The notes: a model not told the origin generated them from the letters alone. Shown: positions 977 to 18,309, counted from the stretch's first letter. The stretch: DNA of 32,000 nucleotides from Phycisphaerales bacterium (GCA_050730655.1 JBOHNL010000019.1:106689-138688); one strand, 5' to 3'. A program made the numbers and translations.

Positions 977-1405
977 TTACGAAACCACCGACCCCGGCGC
1001 GATGTCGCTCTTGGGCATGAGAATCACCACGCGCCGCTGAACGTCCGGAGCGGCGTCTTTTGGCGCATCGCTCGCGGCGAGCAACATACCGCGCGACTCT
1101 TCGCCGCGAATCACGCGCGGCGCGAGATTCGCCACGATGATGATCGACTGGCCCGTGAGTTCTTCAGGCGTGTAGTGGCCACGGATGCCCGCGCAGATCT
1201 GGCGGGGCGTGCCGGAGCCGTCGTCGAGCTGCAGCTTGAAGAGCCGGTCTGCAGACGGATGGAACTCGGCCTTGGTGATGCGTGCGACACGAAGGTCGAC
1301 CTTGGCGAAGTCTTCGAACGTAATTGCGGGCTTCGCCGTCACGGCGCCCTGAGCCGGGGCCGGAGTTGAGGCGGGAGTAGAGGCGGGTGCTGGTGCGTCG
1401 GCCAT
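977..1405 (-). CDS. tRNA-binding OB-fold domain protein (CsaA / Trbp111 / MetG C-terminal-like)
   Basis: KVDLRVARITKAEFHPSADRLFKLQLDDGSG..RQICAGIRGHYTPEELTGQSIIIVANLAPRVIRGEESRGMLLAA matches the EMAP-type tRNA-binding domain. ATG at 1403-1405 with AGGAG 8 nt upstream. Ala/Pro-rich N-terminal tail. Confidence 0.85.
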   Translation of the reverse strand: MADAPAPASTPASTPAPAQGAVTAKPAITFEDFAKVDLRVARITKAEFHPSADRLFKLQLDDGSGTPRQICAGIRGHYTPEELTGQSIIIVANLAPRVIRGEESRGMLLAASDAPKDAAPDVQRRVVILMPKSDIAPGSVVS

Positions 1406-1458: not shown

Positions 1459-2367
1459 TCAGGGCGCGGGGGCTGGCGATGCTTCTGCGGCCACCCACTG
1501 CCCGTCGCGCCAGACGGACAACTTCACATCCGCCCCAAAGGCCGGAGCGACGTTCGCTGGATCGGGGTCGCGTGCCGGCGACGCACCCTCGGTGGCAATC
1601 AGCGAACCCCACGGTTCAGACGTTGCGCCCGTCAAGCGACGCTGCAGGCGGAGCTGGGCCGCGAAGTCGGGAAGACTGAGTTTCATTCCCGGCTGGCCGC
1701 CGCAGATGGGGCAGATCTTCGCTGGGCCGCGTTGGCCTTTCGGCGGAACGATCATGCCGGTGCCGGCACATTCGGTGCAGGGCCACTTCTTGGCTTCACT
1801 CTCGAGATCCTGCACCGAAATCGAGCCAAGGGCGGAGAGTTCGCGTTCGTGATCCTCCAGGACGTGGCGAACACCCTTGGCATTCAGTGAATCGCGGGCC
1901 TCGATCCCGGCACCGGAGCGCAATTGGGTAAGAAAGAGCGAGGCCCGGGCCGCGGCAACCTGCGATTCCTGCTCCTTGGCCTTGCGCGCCGGTGCAAACT
2001 CGGCGCTCGAAGGTTCGAGGATCGCAGCGATCGAGCGCAGCCAGAGCCGATCGCCTTCGCGTTTGCTCATCGACGCCAGCGCGATGGCAGCCGAAGCTGC
2101 GGTCCGCCGCTGGTCGGGCTTGGCGCGTCCGTATTCGAGCGCACGAACCAGAAGTTGGCGGATCATCTCTACCCGCTCGGGCGAGTCGGGCGTTTCAAGC
2201 ATGTCTTCGCCGAGCTCCAGATAGGCGCTGGGGTTGCCCGGTTTGAGCGTGGCGAGGCGCGCGAGCTCGCTGTCATCAAACGGCGTAGGCGGTGGCGCGA
2301 CCGGCTGCGCGATCGAAACGGTGCAGGCAAAAAGGATCGAAGCCAGGATGAGACACGCTCGCTTCAA
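1459..2367 (-). CDS. exported (possible lipo-)protein with DnaJ-type CxxCxGxG zinc-finger motif
   Basis: N-terminal signal peptide MKRACLILASILFAC (lipobox-like LFAC). CTECAGTG...CPICGGQPG at aa 197-227 (nt 1687-1779). TTG start overlaps the upstream TGA (TTGA at 2364-2367). Confidence 0.75.
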   Translation of the reverse strand: MKRACLILASILFACTVSIAQPVAPPPTPFDDSELARLATLKPGNPSAYLELGEDMLETPDSPERVEMIRQLLVRALEYGRAKPDQRRTAASAAIALASMSKREGDRLWLRSIAAILEPSSAEFAPARKAKEQESQVAAARASLFLTQLRSGAGIEARDSLNAKGVRHVLEDHERELSALGSISVQDLESEAKKWPCTECAGTGMIVPPKGQRGPAKICPICGGQPGMKLSLPDFAAQLRLQRRLTGATSEPWGSLIATEGASPARDPDPANVAPAFGADVKLSVWRDGQWVAAEASPAPAP

Positions 2368-5138
2368 GACGCCTTCCCCTTTCTTCCGATCCGCAGCAGT
2401 TGAAGGCGGAGCATGACTTTTTCACCCTCGAAGAGTTGCTCGGTACTCGAAGCGGCGCGGCGCCGTGCGGCGTTCCACTGCTCGACCAATTGCTGAACCG
2501 CACCGATGTCTCCGAGGCGCTCGTGCGCCACGCTCAGCGCGGTCCATTCCACGCAGGCTGCCTGCTTTGCAACGGCGCGTTCGAGCGGGCCGGGCGCGAT
2601 TTCCGATCGCGCGGCAAGCCGGCGACGGATGTCGGCAACGTTCAAGCCAGACGGCGCGCCACGCGACGCGCGTGCCTCAGACGCCATCGATGATTCGAGC
2701 GCGTCGATCGCAACGCCCGGATTGGTCTCCTTCGCGGACGCGTTCTGAGCAGAACGCTCCATCCACGAATCCGAGAGCGCACCGGATGCGATATCGACCA
2801 ACGACTCCGCCGACGATACCGGGAAGAATGTGATGGCGCGATCGAGGAGTGCGCCCTGGGCCGCGTCTTTCCATTTGGGCCTCTTCTTCCACGCGCCTGC
2901 CGAACCGGCAACCTCCGAAACCCATTCTGCATTCTCAGGAGTTTCGGGAATCGACGGCAGGAGGCGAATCACAGCAAGCACGATCGCAGGTTCAGAAACG
3001 TGCCGGCGCAGCTCGCTTCGGGCGAGATCGCGTATCGAAGCCGGCGTGCCCCGCGCCGATTCGGTCACGAGCACGTCGGCGAGGAGTGTGTCGGGGCGCG
3101 CGTTCGCGGATTGAACCTGCTTCAGCACTTCAAGCCGCGCCTGCACGGAATTTCCTGCCGCGGCATAGTCGAGCGCCTTTGAACTCGGATCGGGTCTGGG
3201 CAATTCTGGCTTCGCGCTGTTCGCATTCGCCGTTGGCGCATCAGCATCCGCCGCGATGATTTCGACCGCGTGATCGGGCTTCCCGGCGCGCAGCGCGTCT
3301 GCTGCCAGCGATGCCTGCGAAAGCCTTGCTGCAGTCCACAATCGGGAAGCGTCCGAATCCGGGCTTGTTCCGAGCAACTTTTCCGCCCAGGCAGCCCAAG
3401 TCGCAAAGTCTTCGCGTTCGCTTGTCACCGTCTTTCCCTGCCAAGCCTGGGCGAGACGCTCCCGGAGATTGCTGCGTGCTTCGGGTCCCGCCCCAACCGG
3501 CAAGATCATCGTGGAGTCAACACCAGGTGCGCTGCTGCCGACCATCGCACGGGTGATTTCGGCAAGCAGTTCCGATGACACTGTCGCGTCCTCGAGCCAT
3601 CCCGAAAGCGCCATCCGCAGTTCATCCGAAGGACGCCAACTCAGCGCCGGGGCAAGAACGCCGATCGAGCGAACCAGATCGCGAGGCGGCACCGAAGGGT
3701 TGCGAAGCAACAGCTCGAGCGCATTCAGCGCTGCGATGTCTCTCGCTGGCTGACGATCGCCGAATGCCGCGTCGCGAACTTCGACAAATCCCTTCCACGA
3801 ATCGGCCGACGCCGGAGCCGATGCCGCAATCGCGGACGCAAGCCCGCTCAGGTTGCGCTCAAGCCCGACGCGGAACGCCGAGCTCGATTCCACCTTCGAG
3901 CCGTTCGCGCCGATCGACGCTCCAGATTCGATCTGATCCAGAAACGCTCGTGGCAACTCTCGCTCGGAGAGCAACCGCCCGGCGATCGATGCGCTCGCTG
4001 CGGCGGCGCGGACGGCTTTCGCCGATACAAGACTCTCATGAAGCGGATGCGTGATCGTGCTCGCGGCCGGAGTCTCGAGACGAGATGCGCCGTAACAGAA
4101 ATCAACGACCGCCGAAACTACCGAGGAGATTTCATCCGCGCTCATCCGCGTCCACGATGTTCCAAAGGCGTCGTACGCACGAGCGAAGCGGACGTGCGCC
4201 GCGGAAGCATCCGCGGCAAGGTCCTGCGTCGCGCCGCTGATTTCGTGCGTGACGGCACGGGGATCGCCGATTTCGAGATCCGCCGAGAGTCCCGACTCTG
4301 TCGTTGGGGCAAAACCCGATGGCTCGCGTGGAGTCATTGTTAGCGGAGCGCTCGCAAGCGGAGCCGAAGGTGGGGTCGACGATTGCAGCTTCGGACGTTG
4401 TGAAGGTGTCAGCAGAATGATCGCGGTCGCAAGGCACAGAAAACCTGCGGCACTGATCGCGATGAGGATCAACGCATCGCGCGGTATCACGCGCGCCGGG
4501 CGGCGAAGCGCCTCATTTGCGTGTCCGGACGCGATCGCGGGCGGCTGGATCGCAGAGCGACGCCGCTTGCGATTGGGCGAACGAGTGTGTTCGCGTCCGG
4601 GAAGCCTTCGAACCGAAGGCAGAGACGCGGGAGTCCCGCGCCGTGCGTGACTGGCCCACTGAACCGCGCGGATCGCGTCGGCAAGCTCAACGCCCTTGGA
4701 TTGACACGCAATCGCGAGCCGTTCCATTGCCCGGGCGTTCCATCCGCCGCTCAGCCCGATTGCGAGATGGAGTTCGCGTTCGATGTCTGCGCTCTCGTCG
4801 TCGTTCCCGTCAACGCGAGCACGCTGGTTTATGTACGCGGTTTCAGTCCCGTCTCCCCAGATACGCAGAAGGACGCGGCGGATGGCGGGATCGCAAAGCT
4901 GCGCCGCGGCCGCGTGGAGCGCGAGATTGACTTCCTCCCCGGCAGGAGTGGCAGACTGAGGATGGCGCGCAAGCCTGGCGAGACGCGCGTGGAGCGCCTC
5001 GAGCACTCGAGACGGTTCGATTTCGACCGCGTCGATTCCGAGGAGCGCGAATGGGCCCGGACCGGTCGGGCCGAAAAACATCGGAACCGGATCGAGACGC
5101 GACGTGCGCCGACGATTGGAGGTGGATTCGTCGCTCAC
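2364..5138 (-). CDS. bitopic membrane protein: N-terminal degenerate J-domain (HPQ), one TM helix, about 680-aa Ala-rich extracytoplasmic region
   Basis: 924-aa ORF. Residues 30-95 align by eye to the J-domain (FALLGID...ARLARHPQ...LCDPAIRR). Hydrophobic helix ALILIAISAAGFLCLATAIILL. GTG start overlaps the upstream TGA (GTGA at 5135-5138). Alternative ATG at 5081. Confidence 0.75.
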   Translation of the reverse strand: MSDESTSNRRRTSRLDPVPMFFGPTGPGPFALLGIDAVEIEPSRVLEALHARLARLARHPQSATPAGEEVNLALHAAAAQLCDPAIRRVLLRIWGDGTETAYINQRARVDGNDDESADIERELHLAIGLSGGWNARAMERLAIACQSKGVELADAIRAVQWASHARRGTPASLPSVRRLPGREHTRSPNRKRRRSAIQPPAIASGHANEALRRPARVIPRDALILIAISAAGFLCLATAIILLTPSQRPKLQSSTPPSAPLASAPLTMTPREPSGFAPTTESGLSADLEIGDPRAVTHEISGATQDLAADASAAHVRFARAYDAFGTSWTRMSADEISSVVSAVVDFCYGASRLETPAASTITHPLHESLVSAKAVRAAAASASIAGRLLSERELPRAFLDQIESGASIGANGSKVESSSAFRVGLERNLSGLASAIAASAPASADSWKGFVEVRDAAFGDRQPARDIAALNALELLLRNPSVPPRDLVRSIGVLAPALSWRPSDELRMALSGWLEDATVSSELLAEITRAMVGSSAPGVDSTMILPVGAGPEARSNLRERLAQAWQGKTVTSEREDFATWAAWAEKLLGTSPDSDASRLWTAARLSQASLAADALRAGKPDHAVEIIAADADAPTANANSAKPELPRPDPSSKALDYAAAGNSVQARLEVLKQVQSANARPDTLLADVLVTESARGTPASIRDLARSELRRHVSEPAIVLAVIRLLPSIPETPENAEWVSEVAGSAGAWKKRPKWKDAAQGALLDRAITFFPVSSAESLVDIASGALSDSWMERSAQNASAKETNPGVAIDALESSMASEARASRGAPSGLNVADIRRRLAARSEIAPGPLERAVAKQAACVEWTALSVAHERLGDIGAVQQLVEQWNAARRRAASSTEQLFEGEKVMLRLQLLRIGRKGKAS

Positions 5139-7831
5139 GTGCCCCCTCCGGTCGGATTGGGAATGAGCAATTTCTCGCGCAACTCACTGAACTTGGGCGC
5201 CCACGCGGCCGGGCCGAGGTCAGGGTGCGAGAGTTCAAAGAGGCGGAACGCGTCGCGAGCGGCGTTGGGATCAGTTTTCTCCATCAAGACGATGGAGCGA
5301 TAGCGCGCTTCAAACCAGCCGTTTTGCTCTTCACGAAGTCCGGAGACTAGAAGCTTCCAACACTCGAGCGCAAGCGCGGTGTCGCCGGTTTGTTCGCTCA
5401 TCTCGGCGAGGCGGCGGAGGCTGGACGTAAACCGCCCCCCCCGCTCGTACATTGCGCGATCGATGCGGAGCGCAAGATCGCGGAGCGTCGCATCCTTGGC
5501 GTTTGTTTCGCGATAAACCGATGCGGCGGCGCCCGCCACCTCATCGCGCAGCGCATTCGAACGCGGATCGAACTGCTTCTGGTCGTCGAGCGTGCGAACC
5601 ACGACGTCGCCGATCGAGACAATCCGCCGCGAAGCCTCGATGTCGGTGGGCGCGGCGCGGGATGCCTCGATCGCGCGGCGGAGCGCCAGCATGCGCGCGC
5701 CCTGCGCAAAGGGTGTTGCCGATTCCCTGATCGACGCAATCGCAGCGTCGACTTCGGAGTCATTGCCGGAAGCGACCGCGAGTTGCATCCGCCGGAAGGC
5801 GAGTTCGTCGGTTAGATCGGCGATCGATACGCCGCAGAGTTCGGCGACGTGGGGGATTTCAGTCAGGAGGCGCTGCGCTCGGGCCACATCAGGATTGGTG
5901 AGGGCGAGCGCCGCTTCGAGTTGTTGACGCGCGATGAGCACAACCCGCTGGGCCTGGATGTTGCGGCGCGATCCCTCCGACGCAACCGCAGAATCGCGTT
6001 CGATAGGGTAAATCTGATCCGAAACGGTGAGAAACTTCGTCAGCGCTTCGTCGCGCTCGGTCGGCGCCGTAGCACGTGCGACCTTGAAAAGCAGCGTGGA
6101 CGCCTGGACTCGGGCCTCGTGGCGGAGCGGGGAGCTTTCTGGGACCGCAAGTAGCGATTCGATCACGTCCGCGTCAGAGAACTTGCCGATGCCGGCCCGC
6201 TTCAGAAGCAACCGCGCCGATTGCTCGCTTTTCGGATAGGTTGCGACATAGAACACGGCCGCGCCATCGCGCCGGTCGGAGATCTCTTTGTGACCGGACT
6301 CGAACGCGCGATCGAGTGCGACAACCTCGAACCACAGGGCTTCGCGGCGCGCGTCATCTTCTTTCACACGCTTTGCGACTTTGGCGAATTGATCCGCTGC
6401 GGGGATGAAATCTCCGGCGTAAAAAAGGCTCATGCCCGCGTTGAGCGCGGCCTTGTTGGCATCGGCTTCGAATGCACCTGAGTCCTGCGCGGAAGCTGCG
6501 GCATCGAAGAGCGCCGCGGAATCTCGATAAGCGAGAATGACTTCAGTGCCCGTCGCTGGATCGTTTTCCTTTCCAGCGGCGCGATGCTTGGCCCGCGCCG
6601 TATCGAATGCTTGCAGAGCTCGCACATACTGCGCGACGAAGCCATCGGATGCAAGTGCGCCCGTTCCGAAGCGCTTCGCAAGCGTCACGACATACGAGGT
6701 TTGGCCCCGCGCGATGAGATCTGCCAAGGCCAGACGCCCGAGTTCGGTGCGAGCCTTTGCAGCTCCCGGTGCAGGGCCGTCGGAGCCTTCAAGCGATGTG
6801 ACGGCGAGAAGCACGGCGTCTGCGGTTTCGAGCGGAGTAACAACCCTGCCCTGCGGAGCGCGGGCGCGCTGCACCCATGTCGCAAGCTCGTTCCAGCGCG
6901 AACTCGGACCGAGCACCGCAATGCGGCGTGCGAGTAATTGTGACCGCACATTGGCAGGAACACCCTCGGCTGTCGCAAGTTCATCGAGCCAGCGGAGAGC
7001 TTCCGCATCGTTGCCGAGAATGGCGAGACAAGCGGCGGTACCCAAACAGGCGCGCGCGACATGCTCGTGCACGAGAAGCGACTTTGGGAGCCGGTCGAGC
7101 GTGGGTGCCTTTCGATCCGGCGCATTCAGCAGCGCACCAAAGTGCAGAAGCGCGTCGCCCGCCGCCTCGCGGTCCTTCGTCAATTGCGCGATGTAGCAAT
7201 CGCTCCAACCCGCGTAATAGTGCGCGAGTGATTTGACGCGACGGGCTTCCTGCAGTTGCTTCTTTCCGTCTTCCTCATCCGCGAAGCTCCCGTCGCCGCT
7301 TCCGCCTCCACTCCGATTCTGTTCCTGAGCATCCAGTGCTCGCGCCTTCGCGCCGGCCGCCTGAGCAATCTCGGAAAACTCGATCGCAAGGCGCTTGAGC
7401 GACGCAATTGCTTCGGCTGCGTCGGTCTCGGTGCTCAAGCGCAGCCGCTGGCGTTCGGCCACTTGCTCTGCCGCGAGATATTCAGCCTTCAAGAGATTGA
7501 TGCGGAGTGCCGCGAGCTCGGGGCGCGGGTTGTCCTTGAGCAGAGTGCGAGATTGTTCACGGAACGCGGCACGCTTCTCCGGCGGGAGAGTTTCCAGCAG
7601 TGTTTCGTATGCCGAGGCGAGATCAGTCAGAACGCGCGAGCGCTCGGTGCCGGTCGAGCCGGGCAGCCTCTTTTCCAGCGCGTAGACGCGCATCGTGAGA
7701 AGACCGCGTTGCTTGAGATACTCATCGAGCGCATCGTCATGGAGCGCACGGTCAACAGCAACCGCGCCGAACGACGCGGCAGAAACGAGCGCGAGCAGCG
7801 CGAACATGATGGAGTTACGGAGTCGGGGCAT
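5135..7831 (-). CDS. exported TPR-like helical-repeat protein (898 aa)
   Basis: Signal peptide MFALLALVSAASFGAVA. TPR-like units such as AHYYAGWSDCYIAQLTKDREAAGDALLHFGALLN and ALNAGMSLFYAGDFIPAADQFAKVAK. ATG at 7831 overlaps the upstream ExbD by 17 nt. Alternative ATG at 7807. Confidence 0.75.
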   Translation of the reverse strand: MPRLRNSIMFALLALVSAASFGAVAVDRALHDDALDEYLKQRGLLTMRVYALEKRLPGSTGTERSRVLTDLASAYETLLETLPPEKRAAFREQSRTLLKDNPRPELAALRINLLKAEYLAAEQVAERQRLRLSTETDAAEAIASLKRLAIEFSEIAQAAGAKARALDAQEQNRSGGGSGDGSFADEEDGKKQLQEARRVKSLAHYYAGWSDCYIAQLTKDREAAGDALLHFGALLNAPDRKAPTLDRLPKSLLVHEHVARACLGTAACLAILGNDAEALRWLDELATAEGVPANVRSQLLARRIAVLGPSSRWNELATWVQRARAPQGRVVTPLETADAVLLAVTSLEGSDGPAPGAAKARTELGRLALADLIARGQTSYVVTLAKRFGTGALASDGFVAQYVRALQAFDTARAKHRAAGKENDPATGTEVILAYRDSAALFDAAASAQDSGAFEADANKAALNAGMSLFYAGDFIPAADQFAKVAKRVKEDDARREALWFEVVALDRAFESGHKEISDRRDGAAVFYVATYPKSEQSARLLLKRAGIGKFSDADVIESLLAVPESSPLRHEARVQASTLLFKVARATAPTERDEALTKFLTVSDQIYPIERDSAVASEGSRRNIQAQRVVLIARQQLEAALALTNPDVARAQRLLTEIPHVAELCGVSIADLTDELAFRRMQLAVASGNDSEVDAAIASIRESATPFAQGARMLALRRAIEASRAAPTDIEASRRIVSIGDVVVRTLDDQKQFDPRSNALRDEVAGAAASVYRETNAKDATLRDLALRIDRAMYERGGRFTSSLRRLAEMSEQTGDTALALECWKLLVSGLREEQNGWFEARYRSIVLMEKTDPNAARDAFRLFELSHPDLGPAAWAPKFSELREKLLIPNPTGGGT

Positions 7832-8234
7832 AACTCACACGGTCAAATCCGGCGTCCTTTGCGGCCTGCATGGCGGCAGCCACATCGCCAACGAGTGCGC
7901 CCGCGTCGGAACGCACGATGACGCCTCCTTGTTTTGGAGATTCAGACAGCGCAAGCACGACCGCGCCGAAGCTCGGAATTTCGCGCTGGCCGATACGAAA
8001 CACGACCGACTCACCATTTCGGAACACTTTTAGCGAAACGGGCGGCAGATCCGGTGCCTTGCCTCCAGCAGCTGCTGCCTTTTCTAGCCCGGCGGAGAGC
8101 CGCGACTCGGGCGGAGCAAGCGTGCCCGCGAGCATCAGATAGAGGAGCAAAAAGAGCACGATGTCAATGAACGCAACGAGCGAGAGCCGCGGCATCGAAG
8201 TGATGCCCCGTTCTTTGGTCTGGCGGAAGTTCAT
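7815..8234 (-). CDS. exbD: biopolymer transport protein ExbD/TolR family (paralogue 2)
   Basis: N-terminal TM with conserved Asp (SLVAFIDIVLFLLLYLML) and a periplasmic domain of about 90 aa. ATGA start/stop overlap with the upstream exbD at 8231-8234. Confidence 0.85.
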   Translation of the reverse strand: MNFRQTKERGITSMPRLSLVAFIDIVLFLLLYLMLAGTLAPPESRLSAGLEKAAAAGGKAPDLPPVSLKVFRNGESVVFRIGQREIPSFGAVVLALSESPKQGGVIVRSDAGALVGDVAAAMQAAKDAGFDRVSYAPTP

Positions 8235-8743
8235 GGGTTCACACCCCCACCATCCCCACCGCCCCCACCACCACTCGAATTCTCGTTCTTTACGCTGCCT
8301 CGGATTGAACGACGTGACTCGCCGCTGGTGGCCAGGCGCCAGGTGGAAACGCCTTCGGCGCTGAGAGCGCCGGCGAGCCTCTGGAGCTGCGGCGCGGGCG
8401 TTGATCGATCGGCGCGAACGATGACATCGAGGAAGTTGCCGGTGCGCTCGGCGCGCTGGCGGTCGATCGCGATCATGGTGGCAAGGCGCTCGAGCGGATA
8501 GTTGCGGCCTGCGACCGAGAGTCCGCCGTCTTTTTCAAGATCGATGACGACCGCGGCATTCGCCTCCGAATCGGGGCGCGGCTTCGCGTCACCCGCTTGC
8601 CGCGGCAGATCAAGACTTCTTTGCGCTATTCGGGAGAACTGCGACGACATCATGAAGAAGATCGTCAAAAGCAAAACCACGTCGATCATCGAGGTGATGT
8701 CGAATCCGGCTTCGGGCATGTCGCGGTTTTTATTGAAACGCAT
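8231..8743 (-). CDS. exbD: biopolymer transport protein ExbD/TolR family (paralogue 1) with C-terminal poly-Gly tail
   Basis: DITSMIDVVLLLTIFFMMSSQF is the canonical ExbD TM segment. The periplasmic domain is followed by SSGGGGGGDGGGVNP. Confidence 0.85.
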   Translation of the reverse strand: MRFNKNRDMPEAGFDITSMIDVVLLLTIFFMMSSQFSRIAQRSLDLPRQAGDAKPRPDSEANAAVVIDLEKDGGLSVAGRNYPLERLATMIAIDRQRAERTGNFLDVIVRADRSTPAPQLQRLAGALSAEGVSTWRLATSGESRRSIRGSVKNENSSGGGGGGDGGGVNP

Positions 8744-8793
8744 ACTGCGGGAAATCAGAGAGAGGAAGAAAGACAGCGAAAGCGACGAAACGA

Positions 8794-9546
8794 TCAGGGC
8801 ACTTCGATGGGTTCGGCGGGCTCTCTTGTGCTGCTTGCTCGCGCGGCGCGGCGTTCCGAACCCGGCGCGCTGAGAATCGCCGCCAGATCTTCGACGACTT
8901 CGCCGACATCGACGGCGAGCCGCTCCACTCGTCGCCGCAGGATCGTGTAGAGCACCGTGCAGGGAATCGCCACGAGCAGGCCCTGCGCCGTTGTGACAAG
9001 CGCGAGCGACATGTAGCTGGAAAGTTCGTTCGAGCGGGCAGCGCCTTCCAACTGGCCGATCGTCGCAAAGGCACCGATCATGCCGATCGTTGTGCCCAGC
9101 AGTCCCATCATCGGGCCGATCGCGGCGATAATGGCGATTCCATCGGTCGTCCGGATGAGTTTCTCAACTTCTTTCGAACCTGCGTCTTCGAGCGCGGCGC
9201 GGAGTTCGAGAAGACCAAAGTTGGAACGCGAGCAGCGCGTGAGCGCGGATGCGAATGTGTTCGCAAGAAAGCACTTGTTGTCGTCGCGCCGGCAGAACTC
9301 GATCGCGCCGACGGTGTCCGCGTTTCGCAGACGTTCTTCAAGCCCCAAAATCACGGTGGTCGGAGCCATGACCGAGATTCTCACTTTGAGGAGGTGCGCG
9401 ATGAGCAGAGCGACGGCCAGAATTGACAGGAGCACAAGCGTGTAGCCGATGAGGCCGCCCGCGTGGATGTACTCAAAGAGCGAGCGGCGCGACGCGGCGG
9501 GTGCGGCATCGGCAAGAAGCATGGGAAGCTGTCCAAGAAATCGCAT
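8794..9546 (-). CDS. exbB: MotA/TolQ/ExbB proton-channel family protein
   Basis: Three TM helices and the family signature IAAIGPMMGLLGTTIGMIGAF...LVTTAQGLLVAIP. Starts 2 nt after the upstream stop. Confidence 0.9.
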   Translation of the reverse strand: MRFLGQLPMLLADAAPAASRRSLFEYIHAGGLIGYTLVLLSILAVALLIAHLLKVRISVMAPTTVILGLEERLRNADTVGAIEFCRRDDNKCFLANTFASALTRCSRSNFGLLELRAALEDAGSKEVEKLIRTTDGIAIIAAIGPMMGLLGTTIGMIGAFATIGQLEGAARSNELSSYMSLALVTTAQGLLVAIPCTVLYTILRRRVERLAVDVGEVVEDLAAILSAPGSERRAARASSTREPAEPIEVP

Positions 9547-9548
9547 CG

Positions 9549-10715
9549 TTATTCCTTGTCGGGCACGGGAGCGGATTGGGGCAAAGGAGAGGTCTTTGGC
9601 GAAGCGGGCGGCATTTGTGCCAGCGTGTGACGGAGCGATGCAACGCCAGGCGAATCGAGAACGACATCGCCGGAAAATCGTCGCTCAAGATCGTCGAGGA
9701 GAGCACGAGAGCCATCCATATCGCCGAGCAGCGAAAGGCCGCGCGAGGCGCCGACGAGGGCAAGTGCAACAAGCGGCTGGGGCGCGCTCGTGCGCGACGC
9801 GATCCAAAGCAGATTCAGAACTCCCGCCCGCCGATCGTCGGCTCCTGACTCGGCGAGCAGCGATCGGCCGAACGCAAGCCGAATCCAGATTTGCTTCCAA
9901 AGCGGAACGTCGCCAGTCAGCCGGGCTGTGAGTTTTTGACGCGACTCAGCGCGGACTTCAGGATTGTCGCACTCGGCAAGCACCATGTCACCGGCAAGAT
10001 TTGCCCACGCCGGGTCTTTGGAGGCCTGCGCAAGATCGATCTTCCAAGGCTGCCCTGTATCGCGCCTCGCCGCGACGGCATAGATCAAAAACAGGTCGTC
10101 GCCGGACGGATGCGCCGTGCTTGGCGCGTGGGTAGTAAGCCCTTGACCCGCGAGCGCTCGAACGGCGGTTGAATCGGTCCACACAGGTGGAAGGACGTCG
10201 ATCCAATTGCTGGTAGGGTCAGAAATCCCGAGCCGAGCGCGCTGTGCCACCACCTGCTCCGGTGCGAGAGACGCAGATTGACGCACCCATTCGGTCCACG
10301 GTTCGATGGCGGTGGCGAGCGCACCCCGGTGCACGCGGCACGCCGCAAGGCCCGCGGCGACCTCGGCACGCGTAGGCCCGGAGGTTCCGGCCGTGCGAAC
10401 CCAGAGCTGTTCGTACAACGGCTCAGCGCCACCTTCGTCGTCGCGGCCCAGACGGGCCGAGGCACGCCAGAGGTCGGTCGCGAGCGAACGGTTGTCGTCG
10501 AACTTGCCGGCGAGCGGGCCTGACACACTCTTCACCTGCGAAAGCGATTCGAGCTTGGCGGGACGACCGCGTTCCGTTGCAAGGGTGATCCCCGCGGGCG
10601 AGATGTCCGTGATCGCGACGCGCGTGCCGGAGCGCAGGAGGGCCTGCGAATCCTCCGCCAATGAAGCGCAGGCGAGCATCCCGGAGCAGATGATGAGCGT
10701 GAATACTCGCTTCAC
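9549..10715 (-). CDS. exported hypothetical protein (388 aa), no family recognised
   Basis: Signal peptide MKRVFTLIICSGMLACASLA. GTG start overlaps the upstream TGA (GTGA at 10712-10715). Helical, Ala/Leu/Arg-rich. Confidence 0.7.
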   Translation of the reverse strand: MKRVFTLIICSGMLACASLAEDSQALLRSGTRVAITDISPAGITLATERGRPAKLESLSQVKSVSGPLAGKFDDNRSLATDLWRASARLGRDDEGGAEPLYEQLWVRTAGTSGPTRAEVAAGLAACRVHRGALATAIEPWTEWVRQSASLAPEQVVAQRARLGISDPTSNWIDVLPPVWTDSTAVRALAGQGLTTHAPSTAHPSGDDLFLIYAVAARRDTGQPWKIDLAQASKDPAWANLAGDMVLAECDNPEVRAESRQKLTARLTGDVPLWKQIWIRLAFGRSLLAESGADDRRAGVLNLLWIASRTSAPQPLVALALVGASRGLSLLGDMDGSRALLDDLERRFSGDVVLDSPGVASLRHTLAQMPPASPKTSPLPQSAPVPDKE

Positions 10716-11704
10716 GGGCGTGCTCCCGTGATAAAGGTGTAGGTTCCCTTCGACTGTGTCGCAATCCGTCGCATCTGAGGCTCGGACTCTCGGCTCATAA
10801 ACGCGAGGCAGTGGATGGGAATGCGAGGCGAGTTGAGCTTTGCGATGTCGTCGGCGATGGATGGATCAAACTCACCGTCGGTCATGAAGTAGATTGCGTC
10901 CGGACGTGGCCGGAGTCGAAAGGCAGCGCGGAACGCGTTGATCGGCTGTGTGCCGCCGCTGGGTGTAATGCCGGCGATCACCTTTCGTGCCCAGCGCTTG
11001 CGTTCTTCAAGTGCCTGCGACCAGTCTTTGGAATTGCCAAGCGGCGCGGCATCATCTGAAAAAGTGAAGACAGCGAACGTCGAAGTCTCGACAAGATTCT
11101 GAATGGAGCGGACGAGTTGCGACCGCAGCGCCTCGATCTTTCCCCCGACGCTCATCGAACCCGAGACATCGACAATAAAGACGAAGCGGCTGCCGGTGGC
11201 CTCGACACCAAAGAACGATGCGCCGCCTCCGCCGCCCCCGAGTCCAAGCCCGTCACCCATCGCCTCGTTGGCCGAAACGTTGCCGGCTCCAGACATTGCA
11301 CCGGAGGACTCAAGATTTTCAGAGTTCGCCAGCGACGGATCTCGCGGCACATCGAGCGGTTGCTCGGGGCTGACCTCTTTGAGTTCTGCCGAAAGGTCTC
11401 CCGATAAAGGCGATGCGACCTCGATCGAACTGGCCATGAGGTCGGAAAGCTCAGGGCCGCGTGTGAGGGCAAGCCCCGGTGGGTTCTCGTCACCGACTGC
11501 TGCGGACCCGCCGATGCCGTAGAAGACGCGCGACGAAATCAGCAGCCCGACAACATGGAACAGAATCGAGAGGATGAGACCGACCAGAAGTGCACGCCGC
11601 GCGAGTCGGAGGAGCCACCTCGAAGTTGGTTCAGAAGCGATCAATTGATCGCTGAGTGGATCGCGGGGCGACTCTCCGGATTCTGGATCGAGGACCTGCT
11701 CCAT
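10712..11704 (-). CDS. membrane-anchored von Willebrand factor A (vWA) domain protein
   Basis: N-terminal TM LLVGLILSILFHVVGLLISS, a low-complexity linker of about 100 aa with GLGGGGGG, then a vWA fold with MIDAS DVSGS (nt 11156-11170) in FVFIVDVSGSMSVGGKIEALR. ATG at 11702-11704. Confidence 0.85.
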   Translation of the reverse strand: MEQVLDPESGESPRDPLSDQLIASEPTSRWLLRLARRALLVGLILSILFHVVGLLISSRVFYGIGGSAAVGDENPPGLALTRGPELSDLMASSIEVASPLSGDLSAELKEVSPEQPLDVPRDPSLANSENLESSGAMSGAGNVSANEAMGDGLGLGGGGGGASFFGVEATGSRFVFIVDVSGSMSVGGKIEALRSQLVRSIQNLVETSTFAVFTFSDDAAPLGNSKDWSQALEERKRWARKVIAGITPSGGTQPINAFRAAFRLRPRPDAIYFMTDGEFDPSIADDIAKLNSPRIPIHCLAFMSRESEPQMRRIATQSKGTYTFITGARP

Positions 11705-11911
11705 GGAATGGAATTATGGCTTGGCCGGAAGGGTGTGCCCGGAGGGCGGTGCGCGCATGGCGTGACGGGCCTCCTTCCCGCGGACGGGCCCGAACATGAG
11801 TCTCTTTCGGTTGGGAGGGGAGTTGGTTGCCGCGGAAGCCAAAATCTGCGTGTGATGATCGCTCAAAGTGGAGAAAAACACGACTTCGGGGCCACGAAGA
11901 GGCGGGCGAAG

Positions 11912-11940
11912 TTGACGTGGCTGGATGCTTTGGTTTCAAT
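11912..11940 (+). promoter_or_regulatory. candidate sigma70-type promoter for pyrH-frr
   Basis: TTGACG (11912-11917), 17-nt spacer, TTCAAT (11935-11940), about 30 nt upstream of the pyrH ATG. Sequence match only. Confidence 0.3.
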
Positions 11941-11970
11941 GCCCTGCTTGCCACGCAAGAAGGAGCACCG

Positions 11971-12750
11971 ATGCCGACCAAGGAAGCAACCCGCAAAGTG
12001 ACAGCCCCAAAAAGCGGGAAACCAACCGGCGGCACGCGGAAGTACAAGCGTGTACTTCTCAAATTGAGCGGCGAGTCCTTCTGCAAGCCGGGCGGATTCG
12101 GGATCGGGGCGGACGAGCTGCACTGGATCGCGGGCGAGATCCGGGAGGCGGCCAAGCTTGGCACCGAGATCGCGGTCGTCGTCGGGGGCGGAAACATCAT
12201 CCGCGGAGCACAATTGGCCGAGGCGGGACACATCCACCAAGCGACGGCGGACCAGATGGGAATGCTCGGGACGGTGATCAACGCGCTCGCGCTGAAGGAA
12301 AAGCTTCGGGAACTGGGGAATGAGTGCCGCGTGATGTCGGCAATTGAAATTCGCGCGGTTGCGGAGCCGTTCATCCGGGGTCGCGCACTGCGTCACATGG
12401 AAAAGGGACGCGTGGTCATCCTCGCGGCGGGTACGGGCAATCCGTTCTTCACGACCGATACCTGCGCCGCGCTGCGGGCGACGGAACTCGAGTGCGACAT
12501 TCTTCTGAAAGCAACAAAAGTGGACGGCGTGTACACAGCCGATCCAAAGAAAGACCCGACCGCCAAGCGCTATGACACCATTTCGTTCGCCGACGCGCTC
12601 GCGAAGCAGCTCAAAGTGATGGACATGACGGCGCTGGCGATGTGCCAGGAACATGAGATCCCCCTGCTGGTTTTCGACTTCAATAAGAGCGGCAATATCG
12701 CGAAGGTGATCAAGGGCGATCGAGTCGGCACGCTTGTCACCGTGCACTAG
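11971..12750 (+). CDS. pyrH: UMP kinase
   Basis: RVLLKLSGE...VVVGGGNI.RG...MGMLGTVINALAL...ILAAGTGNPFFTTDTCAALRA.E...LLKATKVDGVYTADP is the UMP kinase signature. ATG at 11971 preceded by AAGGAG. The ORF-track start at 11827 adds an implausible 48-aa extension. Confidence 0.93.
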   Translation: MPTKEATRKVTAPKSGKPTGGTRKYKRVLLKLSGESFCKPGGFGIGADELHWIAGEIREAAKLGTEIAVVVGGGNIIRGAQLAEAGHIHQATADQMGMLGTVINALALKEKLRELGNECRVMSAIEIRAVAEPFIRGRALRHMEKGRVVILAAGTGNPFFTTDTCAALRATELECDILLKATKVDGVYTADPKKDPTAKRYDTISFADALAKQLKVMDMTALAMCQEHEIPLLVFDFNKSGNIAKVIKGDRVGTLVTVH

Positions 12751-13613: not shown

Positions 13614-14822
13614 ATGATACCCGTCATACTTGAAATGAGGCGCTTCGGCGCCAGCGCGATGATTGCGCTGCTCTTTGCCTCGGCTATTACTTCGAGCGAT
13701 TCGCTCGCATCGATGGCCGACTCGACCGTCACGTCCAAGCTGGGCAACCGCGTCTCGCGCCGTGTTGATGCGATCAATGCAGGCAACTACAGCGCGTATC
13801 TGCCGGGCGCGATCACGCTGCTTAGCCCCACGCTTAGTCCTGAACTTGAAATGCTGGCCACGCTGCCGCTCAACGTCGGCCCCCAGGGTCTCGGCAAGTT
13901 TGTGCCCATGTCGCCGTTCGATACCGATATCGTGCTACAGCGCGGCTCCGCCGATGACAACTGCCGCGTGCTCTATCGCTCGGATTTCGATTCGCCTTTC
14001 CAGAAGACGCTGCGCAACGAATGGTCTTATGGAGACGTGCGTGAGACTCCTCAGGGTCGGCGCTTTCTCGGAACCATCGGGAACGGCTCGACCACGCTCA
14101 CTGTCGCCCAGGCGCCCAAGAACGGCGACTTTGTCATCCAGTTCGACGTTCTGGCGATCGGCCAGTGGCAGGGCAACAAGACCGCCACGGGCACGCCCGA
14201 AGTCTGGGGCGTCAAGGTTGTCGATGGCCCGGTGCTCGCCGAAACCAACTTTGCGACCATCCCCGGCGCAACGCAGTCGTATCCCGATTCGGTGGGCCGC
14301 TCGCAGTTCGAAGCCGGTTACCAGGCGCTTGAAACGTTCAAGACCGCTGATGGCAACTCAGCGACGGTGTATCGCCTGACCTATCGCTTCAATCGCGCCG
14401 CCTCGGCGACGGAATCCGGCACCGACGATGTCCGCATCGAGTTCTTCGCTCGCGGGCTGGCCGGCGAGCACGCTCCCGCCTGGGGGCTGACCAACGTCGT
14501 CCTCGCGCTCATCCCGGATTCGGGCGGCATGGGCGGTGGCGGCGGCACGAACAAGTATGACGGCAATTGGGGCGGCTTCGTCGCGGGCTTTCAGCCCAAT
14601 GGCTTCGGATTGATGCCGCCGGGTGCCTCGGGTTCAAAGACATCGTCCGCCCCGGCCCAAGCCGCGCGTCCGACAAACGACCAGGACCCGGGTTGGACCG
14701 AGCCCGACACGACTCCTCATCCGCCGACCCCGCCAGCACCGTCGGAGAACCAGGTGCCCGCGCCAGGGTCGCTCCTGGTGCTTGCGGCTAGCGGTCTTCT
14801 CGGCATCAAGCGCAAGCGCTGA
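13614..14822 (+). CDS. secreted PEP-CTERM sorting-domain protein, otherwise uncharacterised
   Basis: Signal peptide (MRRFGASAMIALLFASAITS; alternative ATG at 13635). C-terminus VPAPGSLLVLAASGLLGIKRKR has the PEP-like motif, a hydrophobic helix and a basic tail. Pro/Thr-rich linker and a GGMGGGGG tract upstream of it. Confidence 0.8.
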   Translation: MIPVILEMRRFGASAMIALLFASAITSSDSLASMADSTVTSKLGNRVSRRVDAINAGNYSAYLPGAITLLSPTLSPELEMLATLPLNVGPQGLGKFVPMSPFDTDIVLQRGSADDNCRVLYRSDFDSPFQKTLRNEWSYGDVRETPQGRRFLGTIGNGSTTLTVAQAPKNGDFVIQFDVLAIGQWQGNKTATGTPEVWGVKVVDGPVLAETNFATIPGATQSYPDSVGRSQFEAGYQALETFKTADGNSATVYRLTYRFNRAASATESGTDDVRIEFFARGLAGEHAPAWGLTNVVLALIPDSGGMGGGGGTNKYDGNWGGFVAGFQPNGFGLMPPGASGSKTSSAPAQAARPTNDQDPGWTEPDTTPHPPTPPAPSENQVPAPGSLLVLAASGLLGIKRKR

Positions 14823-15958: not shown

Positions 15959-15975
15959 AGCAAACTCCTGAAGGC

Positions 15976-18305: not shown

Positions 18306-18309
18306 GGGT

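What the first reader, a model, noticed from the sequence alone, without database searches (positions are those of the whole stretch)
1459..11704. Eight-gene translationally coupled envelope operon built around an orphan ExbB-ExbD-ExbD proton motor (no TonB, no receptor)
Eight ORFs on the minus strand run head-to-tail from 11704 to 1459, with junctions of -4, +2, +50, -4, -17, -4 and -4 nt. The order is:
- membrane-anchored vWA protein (MIDAS DVSGS)
- exported 388-aa protein
- ExbB/TolQ-type channel
- two different ExbD/TolR paralogues, both keeping the TM Asp (AFIDIV, SMIDVV)
- 898-aa exported TPR-like protein
- 924-aa bitopic protein with a cytoplasmic J-like domain
- 302-aa exported zinc-finger protein

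Five of the eight genes, about 8.5 kb of the 10.2 kb, belong to no family I can name. Nothing in the operon or the rest of the window looks like TonB (Pro-rich linker plus TonB C-terminal domain), TolA/TolB/Pal, a TonB-dependent barrel, or a MotB/OmpA peptidoglycan anchor.

One channel plus two distinct stator-like subunits, combined with giant TPR and zinc-finger partners, is loosely reminiscent of the Myxococcus AglRQS/Glt gliding apparatus. The partners here are different. The operon is therefore a candidate for an undescribed PMF-energised, envelope-spanning machine, for example for uptake, secretion or surface remodelling.
Basis: partly seen in the sequence, partly recalled or inferred. 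Interest (0 to 1): 0.8.

Follow-up and report, generated by a model that had tools for sequence, protein, structure and literature searches.

The report
vWA-headed TonB-like motor operon, Phycisphaerae
This is a real eight-gene envelope operon in which a membrane-anchored von Willebrand A protein, rather than TonB or TolA, appears to take force from an ExbB-ExbD-ExbD proton motor; the motor-plus-vWA arrangement was predicted by computation in 2025, and here it comes with four extra conserved partner proteins of unknown function.

Summary
The gene order is kept in 55 of 67 fully covered related loci, all from class Phycisphaerae, down to about 25-30% protein identity.

The motor is not an orphan. 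The first gene, a 330-aa vWA protein, has a TonB/TolA-type membrane anchor. Ser46-x3-His50 is invariant in 70 of 70 orthologues while neighbouring helix positions vary freely. A conserved strand-like motif, a roughly 100-aa linker and a vWA head with an invariant MIDAS site follow it.

New here:
- Conserved partners: a 388-aa TPR-like protein, an 898-aa TPR solenoid, a 924-aa bitopic solenoid protein and a 302-aa four-cysteine protein.
- In-frame 388-898 fusions.
- Repeated absence of the three motor genes from the locus, with the vWA motor-binding signatures retained.

No TonB_C, TolA, TolB, Pal or TonB-dependent barrel was found. I rate it a new variant of a known, uncharacterised kind.

The parts
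10712..11704 (-). 330-aa inner-membrane-anchored vWA protein, the putative force transducer. It has a short cytoplasmic N-terminus, one transmembrane helix, a Gly-rich spacer, a strand-like motif, a linker of about 100 aa and a periplasmic vWA head.
   Evidence: Pfam VWA_3 2.7e-15. One transmembrane segment. Seventy orthologues were aligned. It matches the class described in PMC12204202.
11531..11593 (-). Transmembrane helix of the vWA protein (residues about 38-58), carrying Ser46-x3-His50. This is the first half of the TonB/TolA SHLS motor-binding motif.
   Evidence: Ser46 and His50 are invariant in 70 of 70 orthologues, while the other helix positions take 5-10 different residues. Both are also present in the most divergent loci, L091 and L093. 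In the E. coli cryo-EM structures, TonB Ser16/His20 and TolA Ser18/His22 contact ExbB/TolQ TM1 (PMC12215075).
11435..11482 (-). Conserved strand-like motif after the helix. The family consensus is V-E-F-A-V-M-S/T-E-x-E-L; in the window it reads LALTRGPELSDL, residues about 75-90. It is a candidate 'motor box' that would pair with an ExbD periplasmic domain.
   Evidence: Alignment. The motor-box concept comes from PMC12204202. This assignment is inferred; no structure was predicted for it.
10727..11197 (-). vWA domain with a complete MIDAS metal-ion site: Asp179, Ser181, Ser183, Thr252 and Asp276.
   Evidence: All five MIDAS residues are invariant in 70 of 70 orthologues. Pfam VWA_3, VWA and VWA_2 hits.
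9549..10715 (-). 388-aa exported protein with a small conserved N-terminal module followed by TPR-like helical repeats. By position it corresponds to the uncharacterised TPR gene upstream of tolQ described in the 2025 paper.
   Evidence: No Pfam or NCBIfam hit for the window copy. Five of 31 orthologues hit TPR_19 or TPR_14 weakly, best E 3.8e-4. 596 representative clusters were found. It is fused in frame to the 898-aa protein in L029, L070 and L074, and P0221, P0279 and P0336 have fusion-like lengths of 1219-1291 aa.
8794..9546 (-). ExbB/TolQ-type proton channel subunit, 250 aa, three transmembrane segments.
   Evidence: Pfam MotA_ExbB 1.2e-24. The best solved relatives are TolQ (8.5e-10) and ExbB (3.1e-8). 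The pore motifs GLLGT and ALVTTA.GL.VAIP and Ser41 in TM1 are conserved in 51 orthologues.
8231..8743 (-). ExbD/TolR paralogue a, 170 aa, with the transmembrane Asp in the motif MIDVV.
   Evidence: Pfam ExbD 1.6e-15. The Asp is >=95% conserved in the orthologues. It forms an orthologous group distinct from paralogue b across the loci.
7815..8234 (-). ExbD/TolR paralogue b, 139 aa, with the transmembrane Asp in the motif FIDIV.
   Evidence: Pfam ExbD 4.6e-12. The Asp is >=95% conserved in the orthologues. HHalign against paralogue a gives 98.6% probability.
5135..7831 (-). 898-aa exported all-alpha TPR superhelix, a putative periplasmic scaffold.
   Evidence: AlphaFold2 mean pLDDT 90.3; the model consists only of helices and connecting loops, about 40 helices, with no strands. 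Foldseek against the PDB returns only generic TPR scaffolds such as Ski3, IFT-A and Ctr9, plus the C. jejuni flagellar periplasmic scaffold 9hmf_K; TM-scores are at most 0.23. Weak TPR Pfam hits occur in a subset of members. 54 homologues were found, and every one with a source name is from Phycisphaerae or Planctomycetota MAGs.
2364..5138 (-). 924-aa bitopic inner-membrane protein. It has a cytoplasmic helical domain (residues 18-94, a weakly J-like helical hairpin with a conserved His-Pro loop), a second cytoplasmic helical module (115-165, with a GGWN motif), a transmembrane helix (about 220-243), a disordered Pro/Ser-rich linker (245-280) and a periplasmic all-alpha solenoid (281-916).
   Evidence: AlphaFold2 mean pLDDT 82.9. 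Foldseek gives only weak ARM/HEAT-like matches, best E 6.3e-3. There is no Pfam hit, including DnaJ, in 32 members, and no PDB profile hit. HHalign against J domains gives 37% probability. No residue in the helix region reaches 50% consensus across the orthologues.
1459..2367 (-). 302-aa exported protein with an N-terminal signal-like segment, a helical region, four invariant cysteines (WPCxxC, then 16-20 residues, then CxxCxGxPG) and a conserved C-terminal RDPDP...W...W module.
   Evidence: Alignment A4 shows Cys197, Cys200, Cys219 and Cys222 invariant. Only weak zinc-ribbon Pfam hits were found. The DUF58 hit (E 0.0037, below cut-off) occurs only in the window copy and is treated as spurious.
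11705..12030 (.). Divergent intergenic region between the operon and pyrH-frr; the presumed promoter region.
   Evidence: pyrH matches TIGR02075 at 2.3e-92 from residue 73 of the ORF that starts at 11827. The consensus scan found no convincing promoter or terminator above chance. The same divergent pyrH arrangement is seen in nearly all related loci where that flank is covered.

Best explanation
The locus encodes a proton-motive-force-driven envelope machine of the recently predicted 'vWA force transducer' type, in a Phycisphaerae-specific extended form.

**Shown here:**
- An ExbB/TolQ-type channel and two different ExbD/TolR-type subunits. Both ExbD subunits keep the proton-binding Asp.
- A single-pass inner-membrane vWA protein whose helix carries the invariant Ser-x3-His signature. 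TonB and TolA use this signature to dock on ExbB/TolQ.
- A conserved strand-like motif, a linker of about 100 aa and a periplasmic vWA head with an invariant MIDAS site.
- Four further conserved envelope proteins in fixed order.

**Inferred mechanism:**
1. ExbB forms a pentamer around an ExbDa-ExbDb heterodimer.
2. Proton flow turns the motor.
3. The vWA protein rides on the outside of ExbB through Ser46/His50 and engages an ExbD periplasmic domain through its strand motif.
4. Its MIDAS head binds an acidic residue of a target and pulls on it, as TonB pulls on a TonB box.

The 388-aa and 898-aa TPR proteins probably form one periplasmic scaffold, because they are fused in some species. Together with the 924-aa inner-membrane solenoid protein and the 302-aa four-cysteine protein, they are the best candidates for the structural partners or targets of the pull.

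The physiological output is unknown. Given the housekeeping neighbourhood, the single copy per genome in the loci examined and the reported absence of Pal in Planctomycetes, I favour outer-membrane tethering or envelope remodelling over nutrient uptake.
For: - **ORFs and domains:**
- **Motor-binding signature:** Ser46 and His50 are invariant in 70 of 70 orthologues while the other helix positions vary. The same holds in the most divergent loci.
- **Role of the signature:** Ser-His contacts ExbB/TolQ TM1 in the E. coli cryo-EM structures (PMC12215075). The Phycisphaerae ExbB keeps a TM1 Ser and the TM3 Pro, each conserved in at least 95% of orthologues.
- **Linker:** a conserved strand-like motif follows a Gly-rich spacer, and the linker is about 100 aa.
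- **vWA head:** all five MIDAS residues are invariant.
- **Published class:** the same architecture and gene neighbourhood is described as a new class of force transducers in PVC bacteria (PMC12204202).
- **Gene order:** conserved in 55 of 67 complete loci. It also holds at 24% identity of the 924-aa protein in L091, where the flanks beyond pyrH-frr differ.
- **Coupling:** 4-nt overlaps are kept in independent gene calls at 30-33% identity.
- **Fusions:** in-frame 388-898 fusions occur in L029, L070 and L074, which fall in two separate clades. P0221, P0279 and P0336 have fusion-like lengths of 1219-1291 aa.
- **Folds:** the 898-aa protein and the periplasmic part of the 924-aa protein are confident all-alpha solenoids.
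- **Exclusions:** no TonB_C, TolA or barrel anywhere.
Against: - Nothing here shows physical interaction, proton dependence or a phenotype. The published class is itself only a computational prediction.
- Only the Ser-x3-His half of the SHLS motif is present. The position that is Leu in SHLS is Ala or Ser, and ExbB lacks the TM1 Trp that contacts TonB in E. coli.
- The motor-box assignment rests on sequence pattern alone.
- Twelve of 67 loci lack the three motor genes. The five-gene core can therefore exist without an adjacent motor, and I could not show that those genomes encode a motor elsewhere.
- No outer-membrane component or MIDAS ligand was identified.
- Much of the surrounding neighbourhood is also syntenic across the class. 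Order conservation alone is therefore weaker evidence than it looks.
- I could not test sequence homology to the Tichowtungia seed family of the 2025 paper.
Confidence: 0.7

Rival explanations
1. There are two separate units. The upstream vWA-388-ExbB-ExbD-ExbD genes form the published motor module. The 898-, 924- and 302-aa genes form an unrelated envelope module that merely sits next to it in a highly syntenic housekeeping region.
For: The wider neighbourhood (pyrH, frr, S49 peptidase, Zincin_1, tRNA-binding gene, sigma factors) is also conserved across the class. Synteny therefore does not by itself prove function. The 2025 paper mentions only a TPR gene as the extra partner.
Against: - The 388-aa and 898-aa proteins are fused in frame in L029, L070 and L074, which fall in two clades, and three database proteins have fusion-like lengths. 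This ties the upstream and downstream halves together.
- When the motor genes are absent, 388 and 898 become directly adjacent, with a 4-nt overlap in four loci.
- 4-nt overlaps link 898-924-302 and vWA-388 in distant relatives.
- In L091 the eight-gene block stays intact while the flanks beyond pyrH-frr differ.
Confidence: 0.12
2. The system is a surface-adhesion or gliding-type machine analogous to Myxococcus Agl-Glt. The motor would move or load a vWA adhesin complex. The authors of the 2025 paper and the first reader both suggested this.
For: Like AglR with AglQ and AglS, there is one channel plus two different stator-like subunits. The Myxococcus gliding machinery uses a vWA protein, CglB (PMC9946355, listed). 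It also has large TPR partners. PMC12204202 speculates on gliding.
Against: - The vWA domain here is tethered to the inner membrane by a linker of about 100 aa. It is not an outer-membrane lipoprotein.
- No Glt-type outer-membrane barrels and no TonB_C-like GltG/GltJ domains were found in the window.
- The locus appears once per genome in the loci examined and sits next to housekeeping genes, which suits a core envelope role.
Confidence: 0.1
3. It is a conventional Ton or Tol motor whose TonB or TolA is encoded elsewhere. The vWA and other genes would be bystanders.
For: ExbB/ExbD sets are often shared by TonB paralogues encoded elsewhere (general knowledge). The channel is about equally similar to TolQ and ExbB.
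Against: - The adjacent vWA protein itself carries the invariant Ser-x3-His anchor.
- No TonB_C, TolA, TolB, Pal or TonB-dependent receptor was found in the window.
- The 2025 paper's supplement reports no pal in Planctomycetes.
- ExbB/ExbD score far below the NCBIfam equivalog cut-offs for ExbB, ExbD, TolQ and TolR.
Confidence: 0.05
4. It is a Bat/MoxR-type vWA-TPR membrane complex (aerotolerance-like), assembled by a MoxR ATPase and not powered by the proton motor.
For: It combines a membrane-anchored vWA protein with TPR proteins. A MoxR-type AAA_3 gene lies about 5 kb away in L001-L003. The 302-aa protein has a weak DUF58 hit, E 0.0037.
Against: - MoxR is absent from the corresponding position in the window.
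- The DUF58 hit is below the cut-off and appears only in the window copy among 28 members.
- The motor genes are embedded inside the operon, and the vWA helix has the motor-binding signature.
Confidence: 0.03

Closest known systems
vWA force transducers with TolQ-like and paired TolR-like motors (predicted class; Mol Biol Evol 2025, msaf138, PMC12204202; seed locus Tichowtungia aerotolerans)
   Same: - A single-pass inner-membrane protein with the Ser/His motor-binding helix.
- A disordered linker of about 100 aa with a strand motif.
- A C-terminal vWA domain.
- A neighbourhood containing a tolQ-like gene, two different tolR-like genes and a TPR gene.
- Occurrence in PVC bacteria, including Planctomycetes.
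- Function unknown.
   Different: - The gene order is permuted. The vWA gene comes first here, whereas the paper describes it downstream of TPR-tolQ-tolR-tolR.
- There is one transducer rather than the two noted for Tichowtungia.
- Three further conserved genes (898, 924 and 302 aa) are attached.
- 388-898 fusions and motor-less variants occur.
- The word Phycisphaerae does not occur in the paper or in its held supplements.
- Sequence homology to the seed family was not tested.
Ton system (ExbB-ExbD-TonB plus TonB-dependent transporters)
   Same: An ExbB-type channel, ExbD-type subunits with the transmembrane Asp, and a transducer with an N-terminal Ser-x3-His helix and a periplasm-spanning linker.
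   Different: There is no TonB C-terminal domain, no Pro-rich rod and no TonB-dependent barrel in the window. There are two different ExbD paralogues. The head is a MIDAS-containing vWA domain, so target capture would go through metal-ion coordination rather than beta-strand addition.
Tol-Pal system (TolQ-TolR-TolA-TolB-Pal-CpoB)
   Same: A TolQ-like channel (the best solved relative, 8.5e-10), a transducer with the Ser-His helix, an associated TPR protein reminiscent of CpoB, and a housekeeping genomic setting.
   Different: No TolA domain III, no TolB beta-propeller and no Pal/OmpA-like peptidoglycan binder. The partners are giant alpha-solenoids and a four-cysteine protein.
Myxococcus Agl-Glt gliding machinery
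   Same: One channel protein with two distinct stator-like subunits, many TPR-rich partners, and involvement of a vWA protein.
   Different: In Myxococcus the vWA protein (CglB) is an outer-membrane lipoprotein adhesin, and the transducers (GltG, GltJ) have TonB_C-like domains. No Glt homologues were detected here.

Membership tests
vWA force-transducer systems (PMC12204202) | N-terminal transmembrane helix carrying the SHLS motif with the conserved His | tested here: met
   Ser46-x3-His50 is invariant in 70 of 70 orthologues and in L091 and L093. The Leu/Ser half of the motif is not kept: the position that is Leu in SHLS is Ala or Ser. PMC12215075 notes that this half is also poorly conserved in TonB.
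vWA force-transducer systems (PMC12204202) | [quoted passage not shown] | tested here: inconclusive
   A conserved alternating hydrophobic motif (V-E-F-A-V-M-S/T-E-x-E-L) follows a Gly-rich spacer in nearly all orthologues. No secondary-structure or complex prediction was run for this protein.
vWA force-transducer systems (PMC12204202) | Domain II linker of about 100 residues | tested here: met
   There are 94-103 residues between the helix and the vWA domain in the sampled orthologues, rich in Gly, Ser, Ala and Glu.
vWA force-transducer systems (PMC12204202) | C-terminal vWA fold in place of TonB_C/TolA domain III | tested here: met
   Pfam VWA_3 2.7e-15 over residues 174-324. All five MIDAS residues are invariant.
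vWA force-transducer systems (PMC12204202) | Neighbourhood of a tolQ-like gene, a pair of different tolR-like genes and a TPR gene | tested here: met
   ExbB plus two ExbD paralogues lie in the operon. The 388-aa family gives weak TPR hits, and the 898-aa protein is a TPR solenoid. This arrangement is present in 55 of 67 loci. The gene order differs from the published description.
vWA force-transducer systems (PMC12204202) | Sequence homology to the Tichowtungia seed proteins, and a predicted complex with His at the TonB site on the motor | not testable with these tools
   The seed sequences could not be fetched.
Ton system | TonB C-terminal domain on the transducer, and a TonB-dependent outer-membrane barrel | tested here: not met
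   No TonB_C or TonB-dependent receptor hit in any operon protein or elsewhere in the window. PDB profile searches of the unknown proteins were negative. The folds of the 898-aa and 924-aa proteins are all-alpha.
Tol-Pal system | TolA domain III, TolB beta-propeller and Pal peptidoglycan-binding lipoprotein | tested here: not met
   None was detected in the window. The paper's supplement states that pal is not found in Planctomycetes. ExbB/ExbD score far below the TolQ/TolR equivalog cut-offs.
J-domain proteins (for the N-terminus of the 924-aa protein) | Match to the DnaJ J-domain profile and an HPD tripeptide in the helix II-III loop | tested here: not met
   No Pfam DnaJ hit in 32 members at E<=1. 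The PDB profile search was negative. The loop is mostly HPQ, HPE or HPL, with HPD in only about 4 of 70. A degenerate J-like fold remains possible.
DnaJ-type zinc finger (for the 302-aa protein) | Repeated CxxCxGxG motifs matching PF00684 | tested here: not met
   PF00684 scores E 0.098 in the window copy only. The family consensus is CPxCxNxR...CxxCxGxPG with four invariant cysteines. This is compatible with a zinc ribbon or with two disulfides.
Bat/MoxR-vWA systems | An adjacent MoxR AAA+ ATPase and a DUF58 protein | tested here: not met
   There is no MoxR at the syntenic position in the window. The DUF58 hit is below the cut-off and unique to one member.
Anti-phage MotAB-like systems (e.g. 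Zorya) | Match to defence-system protein models | tested here: not met
   No PADLOC hit for any of the eight proteins. The locus lies in a conserved housekeeping setting.

The most novel reading that the evidence does not exclude
The eight proteins form one Phycisphaerae-specific, proton-driven trans-envelope machine that takes the place of Tol-Pal in bacteria reported to lack Pal.

In this reading, the inner-membrane vWA transducer uses its MIDAS site to grip and pull a periplasmic 388-898 TPR scaffold, or a target that the scaffold presents. The 924-aa protein would couple this to the cytoplasm through its J-like domain. The result would be outer-membrane tethering or constriction during division.

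It would be the first force transducer that captures its target by metal-ion coordination, and the first with defined partners.
Probability: 0.15. Interest if true: 0.85.

Novelty: new variant of a known kind. Interest (0 to 1): 0.5.

Why it matters
Only two families of periplasmic force transducers, TonB and TolA, have been characterised. A third, vWA-headed family was predicted in 2025, with no known function, target or phenotype.

This locus places that transducer in a fixed eight-gene operon that is widespread in class Phycisphaerae. It supplies four concrete candidate partners. Two of them are linked by natural gene fusions.

It also shows that the motor genes can be missing from the locus while the motor-binding signatures persist. 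That turns the question "what do vWA transducers pull on?" into specific pairwise tests.

Planctomycetes are reported to lack Pal, so the system is also a candidate for how these bacteria energise their outer membrane.

Tried and rejected
- **Family searches.** Pfam and NCBIfam searches of all eight proteins, and Pfam searches of up to 37 family members each for the four unknown families, gave no family for the 388-, 898-, 924- and 302-aa proteins beyond weak TPR or zinc-ribbon signals.
- **PDB profile searches** of the four unknown families found nothing significant.
- **Foldseek** of the two AlphaFold2 models gave only generic alpha-solenoid matches. The hit to the Campylobacter flagellar periplasmic scaffold (9hmf_K, TM-score 0.23) is no better than the hits to eukaryotic TPR scaffolds, so I do not read it as specific.
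- **HHalign all-against-all** among the operon families showed no hidden paralogy except between the two ExbD proteins.
- **J-domain and DnaJ zinc-finger readings** were tested and not supported at family level.
- **Defence-system reading** was rejected.
- **Bat/MoxR reading** was rejected.
- **Promoter and terminator scan** was uninformative, with fewer sites than in shuffles.
- **Search for a relocated motor.** A metagenome scan using the ExbB of the nearest motor-bearing relative (L032) returned only seven loci. The four with enough flanking sequence (L085-L087, plus the short L084) showed the usual operon context, and the rest were too short or too weak to judge. The question stays open.
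- **Exhaustive search with the 388-aa protein** found 596 clusters, but only the best 150 are shown and few carry names. I could not establish its range beyond Planctomycetota/Phycisphaerales.
- **Exact look-up of the 898-aa product** failed because the database copy uses a start eight codons downstream.


Full report
**Observation**

The eight minus-strand ORFs are present at the stated coordinates:
- 10712-11704, 330 aa
- 9549-10715, 388 aa
- 8794-9546, 250 aa
- 8231-8743, 170 aa
- 7815-8234, 139 aa
- 5135-7831, 898 aa
- 2364-5138, 924 aa
- 1459-2367, 302 aa

The junctions are -4, +2, +50, -4, -17, -4 and -4 nt.

Pfam names four of the proteins: VWA_3, MotA_ExbB and ExbD twice. NCBIfam agrees, but the scores are far below the equivalog cut-offs for ExbB, ExbD, TolQ and TolR. 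The 388-, 898-, 924- and 302-aa proteins hit no family.

Hydropathy supports the proposed topologies.

The operon is bounded upstream by divergent pyrH-frr. Downstream lies a tRNA-binding protein that passes the NCBIfam cut-off for the methionyl-tRNA synthetase beta-type domain. Both boundaries are therefore housekeeping genes.

The rest of the window contains no TonB, TolA, TolB, Pal, OmpA-like or TonB-dependent receptor gene.

**Distribution and gene order**

The 898-aa protein has 54 homologues in the large protein collection. Every one that carries a source name is from Phycisphaerae or Planctomycetota MAGs.

A scan of one genome per species found 124 relatives. The 80 fetched loci are all titled Phycisphaerae, Phycisphaerales, Phycisphaeraceae, Tepidisphaera or Planctomycetota, apart from one 'uncultured bacterium' record and one bin labelled Leptolyngbya sp. 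PLA1.

I called ORFs in all loci and classified them with profiles built from the window proteins. Among the 67 loci that cover the whole region:
- 55 have all eight genes in the window's order.
- 9 lack exactly the three motor genes.
- 3 lack the motor genes and have the 388-like and 898-like proteins fused in one reading frame.

Independent gene calls at 30-33% identity keep the 4-nt overlaps.

Much of the wider neighbourhood is also syntenic, which weakens order conservation as evidence. However, in L091 the 924-aa homologue is only 24% identical and the flanks beyond pyrH-frr differ, yet the eight-gene block is intact.

**The motor is not an orphan**

In an alignment of 70 orthologues of the vWA protein, Ser46 and His50 of the single transmembrane helix are invariant. 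The other helix positions take 5-10 different residues. The same Ser-x3-His occurs in the two most divergent loci.

This is the first half of the SHLS motif of TonB and TolA. In the E. coli cryo-EM structures, TonB Ser16/His20 and TolA Ser18/His22 contact a Ser and a Trp of ExbB/TolQ TM1, which connect to a Pro in TM3 (PMC12215075).

The Phycisphaerae ExbB keeps a Ser in TM1 and the Pro of the VAIP motif in TM3, both in at least 95% of orthologues, but not the Trp.

After the helix come:
- a Gly-rich spacer
- a conserved alternating hydrophobic motif, V-E-F-A-V-M-S/T-E-x-E-L
- a low-complexity linker, giving about 100 residues before the vWA domain

All five MIDAS residues of the vWA domain are invariant.

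**Prior description**

A full-text search found that this architecture was published in 2025 (PMC12204202).

[quoted passage not shown] They were found next to a tolQ-like gene, a pair of different tolR-like genes and an uncharacterised TPR gene in the PVC group. They also occur in Proteobacteria, Planctomycetes, Verrucomicrobia, Bacteroidetes and Rhodothermaeota.

The function is stated to be unknown, and no deletion phenotypes have been reported. The authors' AlphaFold3 models place the His at the TonB/TolA site on the motor.

The paper and its held supplements do not mention Phycisphaerae. For Planctomycetes they note that pal was not found.

No other paper in the library treats this class.

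**The four unknown partners**

*898-aa protein.* AlphaFold2 with a 37-sequence alignment gives mean pLDDT 90.3 and a model of about 40 helices and connecting loops, with no strands. Foldseek finds only generic TPR scaffolds with TM-scores of at most 0.23. A subset of members hit TPR Pfam models weakly.

*924-aa protein.* AlphaFold2 with a 32-sequence alignment gives mean pLDDT 82.9. The model has:
- a cytoplasmic helical domain (18-94)
- a second helical module (115-165)
- a transmembrane helix (220-243)
- a disordered linker (245-280)
- a periplasmic alpha-solenoid (281-916)

Foldseek gives only weak ARM/HEAT-like matches. Sequence profiles find nothing in Pfam or the PDB. No residue in its helix region reaches 50% consensus, so I see no sign that it docks on the motor the way TonB does.

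The J-like reading is weak:
- The loop is mostly HPQ, HPE or HPL rather than HPD.

*388-aa family.* It has a small conserved N-terminal module followed by helical repeats. Five of 31 members hit TPR_19 or TPR_14 weakly. An exhaustive single-sequence search found 596 representative clusters, among them three proteins of 1219-1291 aa, a length consistent with 388-898 fusion.

*302-aa family.* It keeps four invariant cysteines and a conserved acidic, Trp-containing C-terminal module. Only the window's own clade looks DnaJ-like at the first cysteine pair.

The unknown families are not paralogues of one another.

**Links between the parts**

The in-frame 388-898 fusions tie the upstream half of the operon to the downstream half. 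On a neighbour-joining tree of the 924-aa family, which has no support values, the three fused loci fall in two separate clades.

On the same tree, the motor-less loci fall in at least five separate clades. The three motor genes have therefore been lost from, or moved out of, this position repeatedly.

All motor-less orthologues keep Ser-x3-His, and most keep the strand motif. I take this to mean that they use a motor encoded elsewhere, as many TonB paralogues do. I could not verify this.

**Mechanism**

*Shown:*
- the parts list
- the topologies
- the invariant motor-binding, proton-binding and MIDAS residues
- the conserved order
- the fusions

*Inferred:*
1. ExbB forms a pentamer around an ExbDa-ExbDb heterodimer and is driven by proton flow.
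2. The vWA protein docks on its periphery through Ser46/His50 and engages ExbD through its strand motif.
3. The MIDAS head binds an acidic residue on a target and transmits pulling force.
4. The 388-898 scaffold, the 924-aa inner-membrane solenoid and the 302-aa protein are structural partners or targets.

The output is unknown. I lean towards outer-membrane tethering or envelope remodelling for three reasons: the locus appears once per genome in the loci examined, it sits among housekeeping genes, and the phylum reportedly lacks Pal. The gliding or adhesion idea raised in the 2025 paper cannot be excluded.

**Rivals**

- A split into two unrelated modules is contradicted mainly by the fusions and by the behaviour of the motor-less loci.
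- A conventional Ton or Tol motor with a distant TonB or TolA is contradicted by the adjacent Ser-x3-His transducer and the absence of any Ton or Tol hallmark.
- A Bat/MoxR-type complex is contradicted by the absence of MoxR at the syntenic position in the window and by the spurious DUF58 hit.
- A defence system is excluded by PADLOC and by the genomic context.

**Verdict**

The core (vWA, TPR-like protein, ExbB and two ExbD) belongs to a class predicted in 2025 and still uncharacterised. The following are new details:
- the Phycisphaerae form, with vWA first
- the three additional conserved genes
- the 388-898 fusions
- the recurrent motor-less variants

I rate it a new variant of a known kind, interest 0.5.

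**Caveats**
- ORF starts are maximal ORFs, not curated gene starts.
- The tree is a simple distance tree without support values.
- The structure models rest on alignments of 32-37 sequences.
- The J-domain comparison used sequences recalled from memory.
- No interaction, transcript or phenotype was tested.

Noticed in passing
L029:8408-12658, L070:8000-12622, L074:8948-12616 (+ strand of each locus): In three related genomes the 388-like and 898-like proteins are encoded as one fused ORF of about 1200-1500 aa, and the ExbB/ExbD genes are absent. Three database proteins (P0221, P0279, P0336) have fusion-like lengths of 1219-1291 aa.
   Followed up: yes
L001, L026, L034, L046, L047, L061, L066, L068, L076 (between the 388-like and 898-like genes): Nine related loci lack exactly the three motor genes but keep the other five genes contiguous. 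They also keep the Ser-x3-His helix in the vWA protein. Where these genomes encode a motor, if at all, is unresolved.
   Followed up: partly
window 27891-29495 (+) and 29504-31273 (+): A second, unrelated vWA pair: a 534-aa protein with weak AAA+/Mg-chelatase-like (BchI/ChlI-type) hits is followed at a 8-nt gap by a 589-aa VWA_2 protein. This resembles ATPase-plus-vWA chaperone pairs.
   Followed up: no
window 977-1405 (-): The gene 53 nt downstream of the operon on the same strand is a 142-aa tRNA-binding-domain protein. It passes the NCBIfam cut-off for the methionyl-tRNA synthetase beta-type C-terminal domain and scores lower for CsaA. It follows the operon in most related loci but not in L091.
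   Followed up: partly
window 17898-19643, compared with L001:1029-3794: The MoxR-type AAA_3 ATPase that sits between the zf-CDGSH gene and the 267-aa unknown gene in L001-L003 is missing from the window. Its neighbours (zf-CDGSH, the 267-aa unknown and Zincin_1) are all present.
   Followed up: partly
window 13614-16069: A 402-aa ORF with no family hit (13614-14822, +) and an aldo/keto reductase (14954-16069, -) lie between frr and the S49 peptidase. In L001-L003 those two genes are adjacent. This looks like a local insertion in an otherwise syntenic region.
   Followed up: no
window 22887-25049 (+): A 720-aa protein with a MuiA-family (mucoidy inhibitor) / DUF4139 match. This is another envelope-related protein of unclear role.
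   Followed up: no
L020 (QWIH01000039.1): This record is titled 'Leptolyngbya sp. PLA1', a cyanobacterial name, but carries the full Phycisphaerae-type operon and flanks. The bin is probably mislabelled.
   Followed up: no
window 4734-4745 (-), residues 131-134 of the 924-aa protein: A nearly invariant GGWN motif lies in a second cytoplasmic helical module (residues 115-165) of the 924-aa protein. It has no match to any known domain.
   Followed up: no
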